Assembly (NCBI GenBank): GCA_054600435.1 | Contig: BAAIJX010000003.1 | Span: 620,001-684,000 of the forward strand | Length of the DNA: 64,000 nucleotides | Reading direction: 5' to 3' | DNA from: Neophaeotheca triangularis | Lineage: Eukaryota | Shown here: piece by piece, positions 8,306 to 12,056 of the stretch | How the letters are laid out: each line of letters opens with the position of its first letter | Numbering within the stretch: position 1 is the stretch's first letter | Position numbers and translations under genes: made by a program | The notes under the pieces: model-generated | Databases searched by the model: none | What the model saw: only the letters and a program-made list of their open reading frames with translations | Told to the model about the DNA's origin: nothing

Positions 8306-9245
8306 TTACCGTTGAGAACAGAGGCCGTTCTCGAGGAACGGAATGAGCTCGTCCAGCCTATCAGACCCCCGAGCAAGGGGCATTTTGTCAACTCACGGTT
8401 CTAATAATCTTTCAACGTCATAGTGCCAGGGTCAGCAACTCACCTACTCACAACGACATCCGTCCTCTCATCCTGCTCCAACTCCTCCTTCCCCTCACTC
8501 CGTAGCAAAACTGTCAACGCACCCGCCTCATACCCCGCTTCCACATCATCAACACTGTCCCCCACCATAATCAACGGCAACAACCGCTCTCTCGCCGGTG
8601 TCTCCGGCATTTCCGCCGAAGCCACAATCCCCCACTCCCGCGCAATATGCAACAAACCAGCCGGACTAGGTTTCGGCGGCCTAAAATCCCTCGTAACTAC
8701 AGGCGCGAACGCATTAATGTGCTCGGGCAAATGCGTCGTCAGCAAGTGATTGACCGGCGCGTCGAAATTCCGGGTACAGATTCCTTTGCGGATGGCGTGT
8801 TTGTCGAGATATTCCATGAGGGTTACCAGCCCTGCTTGCGGGACTTGTTGCGACATTGCGCGGCGCTCGATGGCTTGGATGGAGGCGTGGGCGCTTTCTT
8901 GCTCCGCTGGGGGGAGGGAATGGATGTGTGTCAGGATGTCGGTGGTCTTGGGGATGCAGAGGGCGGCGCGCATTTCGGTGAACCTTTGTTTTTCGGGGGT
9001 TCTGGTTAGGGGTGAGTGCATTAAGGGAGGTTGGGTTTGTGTTCACATGTGGTTTTGCGGTTCGCCTTGTCGGGGTATTGGATTAGGATGGGTTGGTTGT
9101 TGGAAGCTAATTGAGAGTTACGGTTGGCTAGCTACGTACATAGAGTCCCGTCCATGTCGAAAATGATGCCTTGGAGCTTGTGAGTGCTATTGTCCCTCGC
9201 ACTGCCGTCCAGAGGGGCGAATCGGTGTCGACTGGTTCCTGCCAT
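8306..9245 (-). CDS. HAD-superfamily hydrolase (YOR131C-like), 4 exons
   Basis: Spliced reading: MAGTS...GIIFDMDGTLC / EPQNHM / FTEMRAAL...ICTRN...PPKPSP...MVGDSVDD...VVSR / LDELIPFLENGLCSQR*; HAD motifs I-IV; GT-AG introns. Confidence 0.88.
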
Positions 9246-9597
9246 TGTGGCAAGATCTGCCTTGTGTTGCTTCAAGATTGTTGTTCCCGGCCTGAAGGTC
9301 AGTAGCGCCCTACGAGAAGTACACGTGAATATCATGAGAAGTACGGTGAGGATCGAATGTAAACGAGCTGTGAATAGTCTAAAGGTGATATCCAGATGGG
9401 CCGATATCCTTCTTGACGTCGACGTCGTCGTCCGCCGATAAGATTAGATAGGGATCTTATCTGCTGCACGCACTGACCATGCAGTTTAGCTACACCTTCG
9501 AGGTGACCTTTCGAAACATCCTCCACTTTGCGCCAACCTTCATCCGCCAACGAAGGCACCCTCCACACGTACAAGAACTCACAAGACAGTCGCAAAG

Positions 9598-10459
9598 ATG
9601 CCAAAATATAAGTCTATTCCTTTTTCAACTGGAAAACAGCACTTACTGACCAATTTGCACTCTTCTGTAGGTCCCACCCTCACCCCGAGCCAATTCCGCG
9701 CATTGCGACATTCGCGACCTCCCTTGACCTTCTCTAACGCGCTTTACAGGCGACTACTGCGATGTCTATCTCACCCACGACTCCATGAGCGTGCGCAAGG
9801 CCCACAACAGCGGTCGCAATCATCTCCGCAACGTTGTTGAATACTATCAGCGTACGTTCAAGCTACAGCGAGCTCCTGGCAACAAATCTAGACATCAGAT
9901 GCACTAACAACGGGTCCCCACAGGCATCAGCCAAGAGCAGGCCCAGCAGGTGATCGATAACATCACAAACGCCTATGAAGAGGCCGGTCAAGGCAGCAGC
10001 AACCCTATGATCGGGGCCCAAGCACCAGGCAGCATGCCAGCATTTCCTCCTGGTTTCCCCGCCATGCCCAACATGCCTGCCGGTGAGTCTTCCGAGTCCC
10101 CCTCGTCCTCGAGCGAAATGGCTGACCTGAGTATTGCCGACAAAGGCATGCCTCCTCTCAACTTCGCGCCGCCTCAGGGTATGCCCCCCGGCTTCCCACC
10201 TGGCGGTATGCCACCACCACCAGGGGGAATGCCGCCGGGCTTCCCGCCTCCTCAGCAAGGGTCCGCCAACTCGCCCTTTCCACCGGGTGGTATGCCATTC
10301 CCTCCGCCAGGTGGCATGCCTCCGGGTTTTGGCGCCGCCGGCAGCCCCGCGCCTGGCCCTGCTGGCTCGCCCCCAGCGGGTATGCCACCGGGCTTTGGTG
10401 GACCGCCTCCGGGCATGAATGGGCCATCAGGTGGTCAGAGGGACGGACGTGGATATTAA
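9598..10459 (+). CDS. YHC1: U1 snRNP protein C (U1-C/Yhc1 homolog); exons 9598-9607, 9661-9666, 9750-9851, 9924-10082, 10146-10459
   Basis: Spliced product [39 protein letters not shown]... is the U1-C zinc finger, followed by the Pro/Gly/Met-rich tail. Confidence 0.93.
9608..9660 (+). other. Non-canonical AT-AC intron (53 nt) with U2-type signals
   Basis: Starts ATAAGT, branch TACTGAC at 9644-9650, ends TTGCAC; its removal restores the U1-C frame and the FF residues. Confidence 0.8.
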
Positions 10460-12056
10460 GCTCGTTTCAGCATAGCAAGGCGTCTGGCGAAAAGACCGCG
10501 GAAATGCGGTGGGAACGGAGCAGCGGCGTTCGGGTGGATACTGGGGCTTAGCCCCTCAGCAGCATAGCGATCAGTATCAAGCATGGCGAGTAGCCAAAGT
10601 TTTCGTCAATAAGCGGTTCTACAGGGTTTGTTGTTATCGTGGAATGCTAGGTCATGTATGGCTCTTCTACCCAAGGCTGTGTGGTTGTCAGCTAAGGACC
10701 CATGCGGCTAACTACATGGGCGCGCAGCTGTTGCCATTGCTCACCATCTTCTCCCTGGCAGAGAAATAGCTGTACGCCTCACCTTACTCGTTGTTAAGAT
10801 ACTACAGGGAGTATCACTGTCTGGCTCCACAAGCAGTGAGGTTACATTATTAACGTGCGTACATAGAACCCGGTGCTTTCCCCCGACCCTGCAGGAGCTC
10901 AAGAAAACATCTATGTTATTCCCTCTAGCCATCGTTGCCGCCTATAATGACCCTCCAGCAACACTGCGCCCTTAATCTGAGCCACAACCACGGAAGAGGC
11001 TTCAAGATTGGGAAGACAATACCCCACCTTCGTACGTACTATGAAGCGCTGATAGCTTTGGCCACCCGCCAGGGACGCCGTGTCCTCGATTTTTAGAGCC
11101 CTGGGCTCACGCTGGCGGCCATGCGTGCATAAAGGATGCCACCTCTTTGCCCGCTCATGTACAGCAGAGTAGCCCGTCGATGAGAGCCATGTGTTTGTCC
11201 TGAGTTGTTGAGCCGCCGGGATCTGGCTGTTGGCTTAAATAACGCATTTGCCTACGGGAGTTTGCTGTCGATTGAAGCAATGCTGCCGACATCCAGGACG
11301 TATTACTGACACCTGAAAACTTGTCTAACCTCTGACCAGAACCTCATAAGCGACGTCAGGGCCCTCAGGTCCGATCAGCCGTTACAGCCTGCAGCAAAAT
11401 CGTCCTTCCAGCGCGGGCTGCTTCTGCTTTTGCATTGGGCATAGCAGTATTGTGCATTGCCTTCTTTGCGTGACTGGGTGGAGATTTTGAGTTGATGCGG
11501 CGCTGAGACCGTGGCTGTGGCACCGAGGCGCAAAGTCACCGATGAAGCGGACTCAGAAAAGCAGAAATGCAGCACTCTCACAGAAGTGCATAATGAGACG
11601 GACGCGCTCGAAGGTCTGGCTCCAGCGACTTCCAGGAACATGAGATTAATGGGAAGCCATGGAGATCAAACGTTTCCCTATGTGCTTTGCCTGATACCGT
11701 CTGCCAGAAAATGTACATGATGTGGCACGCAAGCGACGAGGCGTACGTAGTGGATCGTCAAGATGGAAGCCTTCGTGTACCCAAAACGGTTTGAGGTGAA
11801 GTCGAAGCTGGAAAGTCGCTTCCAGTCACTGCACGTGACGCTGAAATCTTGGCACGCGCACCAACCGGAGCTGTGAAGCTGGCCCGCAAAATTGTTGGCT
11901 TTCACGACTTCACGATTCGATTCTACCTCTTCACCACCTCCATCACCTCACCACACTTCCCTTCACAGTAAGCAGTACTGCCATTAGGACACCGCGCACC
12001 GACAGAGAATTGACAGTGAAGCCAGCACCTCACCACCCCTCCCTCCAACCACCACA

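What the first reader, a model, noticed from the sequence alone, without database searches (positions are those of the whole stretch)
9598..9760. U1-C gene has a non-canonical AT-AC first intron plus a 6-nt micro-exon: possible splicing feedback element
Seen: ATG CCA AAA T | ATAAGT...TACTGAC...TTGCAC | TCTTCT | GTAGGT...CTAAC...TTACAG | GC GAC TAC TGC. Removing 9608-9660 (AT...AC) and 9667-9749 gives MPKFFCDYCD, the U1-C consensus. The only nearby GT donor (GTCTAT, 9612) gives a frameshift, and retaining intron 1 gives a premature stop. Both ends are altered, which a single sequencing error would not explain. Known: Dikarya lack the U12 spliceosome; the signals here (ATAAGT, TACTGAC) are U2-type; A/C terminal pairs rescue each other in yeast splicing; U1-C stabilises U1:5' splice-site pairing. 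Inference: a gene for a 5'-splice-site recognition factor is gated by a +1-mismatched donor, which could tie U1-C output to U1 snRNP status through retention and NMD. I cannot confirm that this is undescribed.
Basis: partly seen in the sequence, partly recalled or inferred. Interest (0 to 1): 0.85.

Follow-up and report, generated by a model that had tools for sequence, protein, structure and literature searches.

The report
Conserved AT-AC intron in fungal U1-C
The gene for the splicing protein U1-C in this black yeast starts with a rare intron that begins with AT and ends with AC, followed by a six-base exon; RNA confirms it, many related fungi share it, and it explains why the gene is so often mis-annotated.

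Summary
Exons 9598-9607, 9661-9666 (TCTTCT), 9750-9851, 9924-10082 and 10146-10459 give an in-frame 196-aa U1-C protein starting MPKFFCDYCD (Pfam zf-U1). One metatranscriptome contig, 95-99% alike, joins 9583-9607, TCTTCT and 9750-9851.

Intron 1 (9608-9660) therefore has unambiguous AT...AC ends, with U2-type signals: ATAAGT and TACTGAC, 11 nt before the AC.

The window matches the deposited Neophaeotheca triangularis protein letter for letter. That deposited model is wrong.

The same AT-AC intron occurs at the same codon position in 5 metagenome loci and about 18 mis-predicted proteins. These come from Dothideomycetes and Eurotiomycetes. Sordariomycete- and Leotiomycete-like relatives have GT-AG there. 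No AT-AG or GT-AC mixture was seen.

The feedback idea is untested, and its sign is doubtful. Two transcript-like contigs of a relative each keep one of the two introns.

I read this as a U2-type (type II) AT-AC intron, probably held in place because single reversions are harmful. It may also block skipping of the 6-nt exon.

This scan's notes report the same thing in two other genomes. Five literature searches found no paper describing it.

The parts
9479..9481 (+). Upstream ATG used by the deposited (wrong) gene model. If it is transcribed, it opens a 57-codon upstream ORF that overlaps the true start.
   Evidence: exons 9479-9611, 9750-9851, 9924-10082 and 10146-10459 translate letter for letter to P0058 (235 aa). 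The upstream ORF was read from the spliced form in the same call.
9598..9607 (+). Coding part of exon 1 (ATG CCA AAA T). It ends in phase 1 of codon 4.
   Evidence: The RNA contig covers 9583-9607 and ends this exon at 9607.
9608..9660 (+). Intron A, 53 nt, with AT...AC ends. The 5' site is ATAAGT (9608-9613). The branch motif TACTGAC is at 9644-9650 with branch A at 9649, 11 nt before the last base. The 3' end is GCAC.
   Evidence: It is skipped in RNA contig X2 record 2. It contains no ATATCC and no TCCTTAAC-like motif.
9661..9666 (+). 6-nt micro-exon TCTTCT. It supplies the rest of Phe4, all of Phe5 and the first base of Cys6.
   Evidence: table 5c, shows these six letters between the two sides of the joint 9607/9750.
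9667..9749 (+). Intron B, 83 nt, GT-AG. The donor is GTAGGT, the branch motif CTCTAAC is at 9732-9738, and the acceptor is ACAG.
   Evidence: It is skipped in RNA contig X2 record 2.
9750..9851 (+). Exon 3, holding the rest of the U1 zinc finger ([33 protein letters not shown]).
   Evidence: Pfam PF06220 zf-U1, E = 2.5e-17. RNA contigs X2 and X3 cover it.
9852..9923 (+). Intron 3, 72 nt, GT-AG (GTACGT ... CACTAAC ... CAG).
   Evidence: The joint 9851/9924 appears in contigs of runs X2 and X3.
9924..10082 (+). Exon 4.
10083..10145 (+). Intron 4, 63 nt, GT-AG. It is in frame and has no stop codon.
   Evidence: The joint appears in the run X1 contig.
10146..10459 (+). Exon 5, the Pro/Gly/Met-rich tail, with stop codon TAA.
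   Evidence: RNA contigs X1 and X2 cover parts of it.

Best explanation
This is the U1-C (Yhc1/SNRPC) gene of Neophaeotheca triangularis or a near-identical strain. Two phase-1 introns lie only six bases apart in codons 4 and 6, leaving a 6-nt exon between them.

The first intron is a U2-type ('type II') AT-AC intron. Its 5' site is the U2 consensus with only G1 changed to A (ATAAGT). It has an ordinary fungal branch site (TACTGAC). Its last base is C instead of G.

Inferred mechanism, not tested here: U1 pairs with positions +2 to +6, and branching proceeds normally. In the second step the major spliceosome accepts the AC that sits 11 nt after the branch point, because A(first) and C(last) can replace the G-G contact between intron ends. 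The second intron is then removed as a normal GT-AG intron; it may also be removed first. Either order can occur.

The AT-AC state is old. It is shared by several orders of Dothideomycetes and Eurotiomycetes. I think it persists mainly because it is a trap: reverting either end alone gives AT-AG or GT-AC, which would cripple an essential single-copy gene. Under this reading it is spliced constitutively and has no dedicated regulatory role.

A practical result is that gene predictors systematically mis-model the N-terminus of this gene.
For: Shown here:
- The model is in frame and restores the invariant MPKFFCDYCD N-terminus. Pfam zf-U1 matches at E = 2.5e-17.
- An RNA contig joins 9607, TCTTCT and 9750.
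- The deposited N. triangularis protein P0058 equals a different model of this same DNA that lacks Cys6.
- Of the 80 metagenome loci kept from 309 relatives, 19 carry an intron at these positions. Five have AT-AC at exactly this position (L016, L020, L037, L062, L066), 12 have GT-AG, 1 has GC-AG, and 1 has only the second intron.
- All 6 AT-AC introns, window included, are 50-57 nt long, have ATAAGT (5) or ATATGT (1), and have a CTRAY branch motif 11-12 nt from the end. The GT/GC-AG introns are 51-151 nt, with that distance 3-25 nt.
- Read-through gene models give the same picture (120 proteins). An AT donor is implied in 12. AC plus micro-exon plus GTAGG is implied in 10. A GT donor is implied in 6. 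Where both ends are visible there are 8 AT-with-AC, 6 GT-with-AG and 0 mixed.
- Further cases were read by eye: Penicillium atrosanguineum, P. oxalicum, Polytolypa and Aureobasidium.
- L062 is Chaetothyriales-like: its neighbouring centractin gene is 91% identical to that of Cladophialophora.

From the literature:
- Ascomycota and Dikarya lack minor introns (PMC10639083 and PMC2846911, passages).
- U2-type AT-AC introns have a strong /ATAAGT consensus, and an engineered AT-AC intron splices in yeast (PMC5029451, passages).
- Type II AT-AC introns are rare: 15 in human (PMC1557818, passages).
Against: - The RNA support for this window is one low-depth contig (depth 2.6). Only 25 letters lie on exon 1, and the source is a 95-99% alike organism in a metatranscriptome. 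The tool warns that such joints can be unreliable.
- Splicing by the major spliceosome is inferred. The whole genome is not held, so the absence of U11/U12 snRNAs could not be checked. Rfam found nothing in the 64-kb window, which says little.
- The 'neutral trap' part has no direct support. Conservation of the exact termini, of a 50-57-nt length, of TGCAC before the micro-exon in 4 of 6 (GCAC in 5 of 6) and of GTAGGT after it in 5 of 5 could also reflect selection for a function.
- L074 is a Patellaria-like Dothideomycete with GC-AG at this position. The state has therefore changed more than once, which a strict trap makes harder.
- L037 and L045 suggest that partly spliced RNA can be abundant.
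- Protein-based inferences rest on amino-acid signatures, not on DNA.
- The 80 loci are biased towards contiguous N-termini by the way they were ranked.
Confidence: 0.55

Rival explanations
1. Anti-skipping lock. A 6-nt exon between two GT-AG introns is easily skipped. Here skipping (exon 1 joined to exon 3) stays in frame and gives MPKC-DYCD. Making the upstream intron AT-AC means its donor can complete splicing only with an AC end, not with the AG acceptor of intron B. The micro-exon is then forced into the mRNA. Under this reading the AT-AC pair is selected as a fidelity device.
For: - Joining T9607 to GC at 9750 keeps the frame and the CxxC spacing (sequence; one search gives the coordinates).
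- Nine deposited models in GT-type lineages are exactly this skipped form, MPKC-DYCD: Trichoderma x3, Colletotrichum, Golovinomyces, Thielaviopsis, Drechmeria, Geosmithia and Pseudogymnoascus (read by eye). Skipping is therefore at least what canonical-site logic predicts there.
- Most AT-AC cases keep intron B. These are the window, L016, L020, L066, probably the L037/L045 gene, and 10 proteins with the HS[SF]VG signature. Most GT-AG loci have lost B: 11 of 12, plus the GC-AG locus.
- Incompatibility of splice-site classes is an accepted principle for U2/U12 pairs (PMC1874599, start of abstract only).
- As an unchecked lead, a scan note (e1-7522992) reports another fungal AT-AC intron next to a 12-nt micro-exon.
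Against: - AT-AC also occurs without intron B, in L062 and in Microthyrium P0048. The lock is not needed there, although B may have been lost later.
- GT-AG plus micro-exon exists and presumably works: L059, P0034 and P0022.
- The association is confounded by phylogeny: AT-AC lies in Dothideomycetes and Eurotiomycetes, GT-AG in Sordariomycete- and Leotiomycete-like lineages.
- No skipped transcript was seen. 0 of 80 loci have the skipped form, and all 9 MPKC models are genome annotations, not RNA.
Confidence: 0.2
2. Autoregulatory sensor. The +1-mismatched donor makes U1-C pre-mRNA splicing unusually dependent on U1 snRNP or U1-C activity. Unspliced or partly spliced RNA carries an early stop and is degraded or retained, which ties U1-C output to the state of the U1 snRNP.
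For: - Retention of intron A gives a stop after 35 codons.
- L037 and L045 are 97% identical over 947 nt. They share the 5' leader, start within 18 nt of each other and end within 2 nt of each other. L037 keeps only intron A (AT-AC). L045 keeps only intron B. They are most simply two partly spliced transcripts of one gene type.
- No fully spliced twin of L037/L045 is among the 80 kept loci.
- U1-C is thought to help weak 5' sites (PMC6280755, passages).
- Human U1C and U1-70K are linked by an alternative-splicing switch (PMC3798272, title and start of abstract only).
- The AT-AC state is conserved across two classes.
Against: - Nothing here measures dependence on U1-C.
- Taken simply, the circuit is positive feedback (less U1-C gives less splicing gives less U1-C), not homeostasis. 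An extra inhibitory step would have to be assumed.
- The window's own RNA contig is fully spliced.
- Sister lineages manage with GT-AG, GC-AG or no intron at all (60 of 80 loci are contiguous).
- The region has no significant RNA structure (z = -0.85).
- L037 and L045 could be genomic or nuclear pre-mRNA. Any short intron whose length is not a multiple of three gives a stop when retained.
Confidence: 0.15
3. Relic of a U12-type intron. This concerns origin, so it is compatible with any of the readings above. Under it, the ancestor had a minor-spliceosome AT-AC intron at this position, and the intron was converted to U2 dependence before Dikarya lost the minor spliceosome.
For: - The AT-AC termini, the short constant branch-to-3' distance of 11-12 nt in 6 of 6, and one ATATGT donor (L016) recall U12-type features (the U12 features themselves are recalled).
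- The minor spliceosome is ancestral in eukaryotes and survives in some early-diverging fungi (PMC10639083, passages).
Against: - There is no ATATCC and no TCCTTAAC-like branch site in the window intron.
- Sordariomycete- and Leotiomycete-like relatives have GT-AG with ordinary U2 signals at the same position. AT-AC may therefore be derived within one clade.
- I found no statement that SNRPC carries a U12-type intron (passages say nothing on it).
- No DNA of early-diverging fungi could be examined.
Confidence: 0.08
4. Artefact or different gene structure. The AT and AC would be assembly errors, or the true mRNA would use the deposited model (ATG 9479, donor 9612) or the in-frame donor at 9671.
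For: - The deposited model exists.
- The 9671 donor model is in frame. Analogous models were deposited for Aureobasidium and Rhizodiscina.
Against: - Both alternative models lose the invariant Cys6 of the zinc finger.
- The RNA contig shows 9607, TCTTCT, 9750, not 9611/9750 or 9670/9750.
- The same AT...AC pair recurs in independent loci and species.
Confidence: 0.02

Closest known systems
U2-type ('type II') AT-AC introns of animals (human SCN4A and SCN5A; Sheth et al. 2006, PMC1557818, passages read; Wu & Krainer 1997 as cited in PMC6280755)
   Same: AT...AC termini. A 5' site equal to the U2 consensus except at +1 (/ATAAGT, as stated in PMC5029451). No U12-type 5' site or branch site. Conserved over long evolutionary distances. 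Very rare.
   Different: This one is in a filamentous-fungal lineage without a minor spliceosome. It sits in a gene for a 5'-splice-site recognition factor. It is only 50-57 nt long, with the branch point 11-12 nt from the AC, and it is followed directly by a 6-nt exon. U2 dependence is inferred here, not shown.
AT-AC splicing in Saccharomyces cerevisiae: the engineered A1/C-last intron (Parker & Siliciano 1993, as cited) and the nested RPL30 AT-AC intron (PMC5029451, passages)
   Same: A fungus lacking the minor spliceosome can splice AT-AC. The first and last intron bases compensate for each other.
   Different: The RPL30 event accounts for 1-2% of transcripts, has a 5' site unlike ATAAGT, and is not needed for the protein. 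Here the AT-AC intron must be removed to make the only functional mRNA, and it is conserved across classes.
U12-type AT-AC introns (minor spliceosome)
   Same: AT-AC ends and a short branch-to-3' distance.
   Different: No ATATCC 5' site and no TCCTTAAC branch site. The host clade lacks minor introns (PMC10639083 and PMC2846911, passages).
Unproductive-splicing control of spliceosome genes, such as the human U1C/U1-70K switch (PMC3798272, title and start of abstract only)
   Same: A core U1 snRNP gene whose expression could be set at the splicing step, with retained forms carrying early stops.
   Different: No alternative productive/unproductive switch or dependence on protein level has been shown here. 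The element would be a terminal-dinucleotide pair rather than a cassette exon.
AT-AC type II introns hypothesised in xylanase genes of filamentous fungi (mentioned in PMC1557818, passage)
   Same: Filamentous fungi with presumed U2-type AT-AC introns.
   Different: A different gene family. I did not see the primary data, and no micro-exon or cross-class conservation is mentioned in the passage.

Membership tests
U2-type (type II) AT-AC intron | The intron begins with AT and ends with AC, and the junction is unambiguous. | tested here: met
   The RNA contig runs 9607, TCTTCT, 9750. The flanking bases forbid sliding the junction.
U2-type (type II) AT-AC intron | The 5' site fits the U2-type consensus except at position +1 (/ATAAGT). 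| tested here: met
   ATAAGT lies at 9608-9613. 5 of 6 AT-AC introns have ATAAGT and 1 has ATATGT. The consensus is as quoted in PMC5029451 and the method is as in PMC1557818.
U2-type (type II) AT-AC intron | Removed by the major (U1/U2/U4/U5/U6) spliceosome. | not testable with these tools
   Inferred from the literature: no minor introns in Ascomycota or Dikarya. The whole genome is not held. Rfam gave 0 hits on the window.
U12-type AT-AC intron | An ATATCCTT-like 5' site and a TCCTTAAC-like branch site. | tested here: not met
   Neither motif is in 9608-9660. The branch motifs in the 6 AT-AC introns are CTRAY.
U1-C / Yhc1 / SNRPC protein | An N-terminal U1-type C2H2 zinc finger (Pfam PF06220) with Cys6, Cys9, His24 and His30. 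| tested here: met
   Exon 3 alone hits zf-U1 at E = 2.5e-17. The spliced model has C6, C9, H24 and H30, which are invariant columns of alignment A1. The homologues are named U1 snRNP C or Yhc1.
Micro-exon | A very short internal exon bounded by two real introns and present in the mRNA. | tested here: met
   The six letters TCTTCT lie between the two sides of the joint in the RNA contig (table 5c). The same 6-nt exon (TCTTCT, TCTTTT or TTTTCT) occurs in L016, L020, L066 and L059.
Autoregulatory unproductive splicing of a splicing-factor gene | An unproductive isoform exists at appreciable level. | tested here: inconclusive
   None was seen for the window. L037 and L045 of a relative look like partly spliced transcripts, but their RNA origin is only inferred from their coincident ends.
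Autoregulatory unproductive splicing of a splicing-factor gene | The isoform ratio depends on the level of the encoded protein or its complex. | not testable with these tools
   This needs U1-C depletion or over-expression experiments.

The most novel reading that the evidence does not exclude
The AT-AC pair is a selected device rather than a frozen accident. It has been kept since before Dothideomycetes and Eurotiomycetes diverged, in the gene for the protein that clamps U1 onto 5' splice sites.

It could do either or both of two things. It could make the donor of intron A chemically incompatible with the AG acceptor of intron B, so that the 6-nt exon cannot be skipped. It could also make production of U1-C mRNA a read-out of how well the cell's spliceosome handles a +1-mismatched site, with partly spliced, stop-containing RNAs as the off state.

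If so, 'terminal-dinucleotide incompatibility within the major spliceosome' would be a new way to enforce or gate exon choice in organisms that have no minor spliceosome.
Probability: 0.25. Interest if true: 0.8.

Novelty: new member of a known kind. Interest (0 to 1): 0.6.

Why it matters
Annotation. In the two protein lists I examined, 97 of 225 U1-C homologues (61 of 120, 36 of 105) do not have the conserved MP(K/R)(F/Y)(F/Y)C directly before DYCD. A few of these are partial or variant sequences. The deposited protein of this very organism lacks a zinc-binding cysteine. Knowing the AT-AC intron and the 6-nt exon fixes these models.

Evolution. This is a clean natural example of coupled change at the first and last bases of an intron. 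Where both ends could be read, the window, 5 loci and 8 proteins are AT with AC, and 13 loci (12 GT, 1 GC) and 6 proteins are GT or GC with AG. None is mixed. It occurs in a clade without a minor spliceosome, with tightly fixed geometry: 50-57 nt long, branch point 11-12 nt from the AC.

Mechanism. It offers a tractable system, in culturable and non-dangerous fungi, to ask two questions. Do incompatible intron termini protect a micro-exon from skipping? Does a core U1 snRNP gene sense spliceosome performance through its own odd intron?

Tried and rejected
Rfam on the 64-kb window gave 0 hits, which is not informative.
- The first protein search with the 33-aa exon-3 peptide was too short. I repeated it with the 59-aa open frame 9728-9904. 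The first locus search with the same peptide was too short. I repeated it with alignment A1.
- RNA runs: only 3 metatranscriptome runs hold a small share of the stretch. Introns A and B, the 5' flank before 9583 and several exon parts have no cover. That absence shows nothing about retention or about the transcription start.
- RNA structure of 9585-9765: MFE -33.7 kcal/mol, z = -0.85, and 32 of 200 shuffles fold as well. There is no evidence for a structured element. I did not pursue a small hairpin pairing UGCA with UGUA around the micro-exon.
- A route to the same mRNA through nested canonical GT-AG splicing (stwintron-like) was considered and rejected. The final junction has no G, and the ends cannot be slid.
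- GTCTAT donor at 9612: a frameshift from ATG 9598. Donor at 9671: in frame but loses Cys6, and RNA does not support it.
- Looking for a fully spliced or a micro-exon-skipped twin of L037/L045 among the 80 loci: none found. The set is only the best 80 of 309.
- Class assignment of L037/L045 by tblastn with named U1-C proteins was ambiguous.
- Literature: searches found no paper on an AT-AC intron in a fungal U1-C gene. PMC3091305 was a false hit (KS-AT-ACP domain strings). PMC9887622 says nothing on SNRPC introns.
- Scan notes by place and by sequence gave nothing.
Full report
**What is in the sequence**

ATG is at 9598 and exon 1 ends at T9607. Next comes a 53-nt segment, 9608-9660, that starts ATAAGT, contains TTACTGAC and ends GCAC. 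The six bases TCTTCT (9661-9666) follow. Then comes an 83-nt GT-AG intron (9667-9749; GTAGGT ... CTCTAAC ... ACAG), and exon 3 starts with GC GAC TAC TGC.

Joining 9598-9607, 9661-9666, 9750-9851, 9924-10082 and 10146-10459 gives a 591-nt open frame and a 196-aa protein beginning [17 protein letters not shown]. Exon 3 alone hits Pfam zf-U1 at E = 2.5e-17. The homologues are named U1 snRNP C or Yhc1. In an alignment of 18 of them, residues 1-25 are invariant, including M1 P2 K3 F4 F5 C6.

The junction cannot be moved by even one base, because the flanking letters differ. The removed segment is therefore unambiguously AT...AC.

The GTCTAT donor at 9612 gives a frameshift from ATG 9598, and retention of intron 1 gives an early stop. 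Two things were missed:
- A GTCCCA donor at 9671 gives an in-frame product that lacks Cys6.
- An upstream ATG lies at 9479.

**RNA evidence**

No run of the organism itself was offered. Three metatranscriptome runs hold small parts of the stretch. Laid on 9300-10700, run X2 has one 214-nt contig (depth 2.6, four other letters). It lies on 9583-9607, then has the six letters TCTTCT, then lies on 9750-9851 and 9924-10004. These are precisely the predicted joints, with the micro-exon in between.

Contigs of X2 and X3 confirm intron 3 (9851/9924), and X1 confirms intron 4.

Caveats: this is a single low-depth contig. Only 25 letters lie on exon 1. The likeness threshold was lowered to 90. The source is 95-99% alike, not identical. 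The contig does not support the deposited model (9611/9750) or the 9671 donor.

**Whose gene it is, and the annotation error**

Among the homologues, P0058 is named by its source as a hypothetical protein of Neophaeotheca triangularis. It equals letter for letter the translation of 9479-9611, 9750-9851, 9924-10082 and 10146-10459. The window is therefore this species or a near-identical strain (Dothideomycetes, Neophaeothecales).

The deposited model is an artefact of insisting on GT-AG. It starts at an upstream out-of-frame ATG, uses the GT at 9612, and loses the first zinc-finger cysteine.

This is general. 61 of the 120 best homologues (classified) and 36 of 105 further ones do not have MP(K/R)(F/Y)(F/Y)C directly before DYCD.

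**Relatives: DNA**

A metagenome scan with an alignment of U1-C proteins matched 309 relatives. The best 80 were kept, and the ranking favours contiguous N-termini. Of the 80, 60 are contiguous at this point (cDNA or intron-less), 1 is truncated, and 19 carry an intron.

At exactly the same position, after ATGCCNAART:
- 5 loci have AT...AC (L016, L020, L037, L062, L066).
- 12 have GT...AG. Four of these, L052-L054 and L056, are near-duplicates.
- 1 has GC...AG (L074).
- 1 (L045) has only the second intron.

L016, L020 and L066 also have the 6-nt exon (TCTTCT or TCTTTT) and a second intron starting GTAGGT, like the window. L059 has the same architecture with GT-AG and TTTTCT.

All six AT-AC introns, window included, share these features:
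- They are 50-57 nt long.
- They start ATAAGT (5) or ATATGT (1).
- They have a CTRAY branch motif 11-12 nt from the last base.
- They end YAC.

The GT/GC-AG versions are 51-151 nt long, with that distance 3-25 nt as the script measures it. No AT...AG or GT...AC combination was seen.

**Relatives: read-through proteins**

Mis-predicted models that read through the introns betray the DNA underneath. The signatures are:
- MPKYK or MPKYM (or CxNIS in the other frame) means T|ATAAG or T|ATATG.
- MPKCK (or CxNVS) means T|GTAAG.
- HSSVG or HSFVG means CAC|TCTTYT|GTAGG.
- ...VFC means AG|TCTTCTGC.
- ...LFC means C|TCTTCTGC.

In the first 120 proteins, an AT donor is implied in 12. The AC-plus-micro-exon-plus-GTAGG signature is implied in 10. 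A GT donor is implied in 6. Where both ends can be read there are 8 AT-with-AC, 6 GT-with-AG and none mixed.

Named AT-AC carriers are Rhizodiscina, Saccharata, Microthyrium and Neophaeotheca (Dothideomycetes) and Penicillium sp. (AC end).

Reading by eye adds more:
- AT-AC: Aureobasidium sp., Penicillium atrosanguineum (ATATGT), P. oxalicum, and Polytolypa (Onygenales).
- GT-AG: Gaeumannomyces (Sordariomycetes).
- AG acceptors: Diaporthe and Nemania.

By tblastn:
- L020 is Penicillium antarcticum-like.
- L016 is Penicillium-like.
- L077 (GT-AG) is Rhynchosporium-like.
- L042 is Apiospora-like.
- L027 and L041 are Xylariales-like.
- L074 (GC-AG) is Patellaria-like (Dothideomycetes).

L062 (AT-AC, no second intron) lies next to a centractin gene that is 91% identical to that of Cladophialophora and 86% to those of Exophiala and Cyphellophora. 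It is therefore Chaetothyriales-like.

The AT-AC state thus spans at least five orders of Dothideomycetes and three of Eurotiomycetes. The GT-AG state is what I see in Sordariomycete- and Leotiomycete-like sequences. One ancient switch plus at least one later change (L074) is the simplest history. I did not build a tree.

**What kind of intron it is**

The 5' site is the U2 consensus with only +1 changed, and the branch site is the ordinary fungal CTRAC. The window intron has no ATATCC and no TCCTTAAC-like motif.

Passages in PMC10639083 and PMC2846911 state that Ascomycota and Dikarya have no convincing minor introns or U12-type splicing. [quoted passage not shown] PMC1557818 counts only 15 such introns in human and mentions that some fungal xylanase genes were hypothesised to have them.

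I therefore file this as a U2-type (type II) AT-AC intron. U2 dependence is inferred: the genome is not held, so the snRNA check could not be run.

The likely mechanism, from recalled yeast genetics and spliceosome structures, is as follows. The first step tolerates A at +1. The second step needs the non-Watson-Crick contact between the first and last intron bases, which A and C can make in place of G and G. The fixed 11-12-nt spacing fits a 3' end that must be found by position rather than by an AG.

**Function**

My best reading (0.55) is a constitutively spliced intron kept by a mutational trap. Either single reversion gives an incompatible pair in an essential gene.

Two functional readings stay open.

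(a) Lock against skipping (0.2). Joining exon 1 directly to exon 3 stays in frame and gives MPKC-DYCD. Nine deposited models in GT-type lineages are exactly that. An AT donor cannot finish on the AG of intron B. AT-AC cases mostly keep intron B, while GT-AG cases have mostly lost it. However, this is confounded by phylogeny, two AT-AC cases lack intron B, and no skipped RNA was seen.

It has one new observation in its favour. L037 and L045 are 97% identical over 947 nt. They share the 5' leader, begin within 18 nt of each other and end within 2 nt of each other. They differ only in that L037 keeps the AT-AC intron and lacks intron B, while L045 lacks intron A and keeps B. They look like two partly spliced transcripts, both with early stops. 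That would also show that either intron can go first. No fully spliced twin is among the 80 loci.

Against (b): nothing ties this to U1-C level. The simple circuit is positive feedback. The window's RNA contig is fully spliced. The region has no significant structure (z = -0.85).

A U12-relic origin (0.08) could not be tested for lack of DNA from early-diverging fungi.

**Novelty and verdict**

Five literature searches found no description of an AT-AC intron in a fungal U1-C gene. Subscription journals and supplements that I did not open may hold one.

The scan's own notes report the same feature in two other genomes (e1-7639716 and e1-7650731). They also report another fungal AT-AC intron next to a 12-nt micro-exon (e1-7522992). 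These are unchecked AI notes and do not count as independent support. My own calls reproduce their main claim on this window.

The kind of intron is known. This instance is new: its position in U1-C, its depth of conservation, its fixed geometry and its pairing with a 6-nt exon. It is a real, tidy and useful finding with an open functional question. It is not a new class of element. Interest 0.6.

Noticed in passing
window 9479-9611 joined to 9750: The deposited protein of this organism (P0058) is built from an upstream out-of-frame ATG and the GT at 9612. It lacks the first zinc-finger cysteine, and the RNA contig contradicts it.
   Followed up: yes
window 9479-9481: If transcription starts upstream of 9479, the spliced mRNA carries a 57-codon upstream ORF that overlaps the true start codon at 9598. 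The transcription start is unknown, because the RNA contig begins at 9583.
   Followed up: partly
window 10083-10145: Intron 4 is 63 nt, in frame and without a stop. Retention would insert 21 residues rather than truncate the protein. The one RNA contig there shows it spliced.
   Followed up: partly
window 9656-9672; L016, L020, L066, L062: Beyond the AC itself, GCAC precedes the micro-exon in 5 of 6 AT-AC introns (TGCAC in 4 of them). GTAGGT follows it in 5 of 5 loci that have intron B, and the protein signatures show the same as '...VG'. GT-AG lineages vary here (GTATGT, GTAAGT, GTACGT). This is unexplained. A 4-bp UGCA/UGUA hairpin is possible but not significant.
   Followed up: partly
L037 and L045 (whole contigs): Two 97%-identical, transcript-like contigs from different records each keep a different one of the two N-terminal introns. 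L045 also has a 1-nt deletion in the coding tail relative to L037.
   Followed up: partly
L074: A Patellaria-like Dothideomycete locus has GC-AG (GCAAGC...CCAG) at the intron A position. The terminal dinucleotides at this site have therefore changed more than once.
   Followed up: partly
proteins P0142, P0146, P0149, P0153, P0158, P0164, P0211, P0212, P0224: Nine deposited U1-C models read MPKC-DYCD. In these, exon 1 is joined directly to exon 3 and the 6-nt exon is skipped. They are probably prediction artefacts, but skipping is in frame and keeps the CxxC spacing.
   Followed up: partly
L062 3-779 (minus strand): A centractin (Arp1) gene lies about 0.4 kb upstream of, and divergent from, the U1-C gene in the Chaetothyriales-like contig. 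The window does not have the same neighbour: it has a different open frame on the minus strand at 8440-9042.
   Followed up: no
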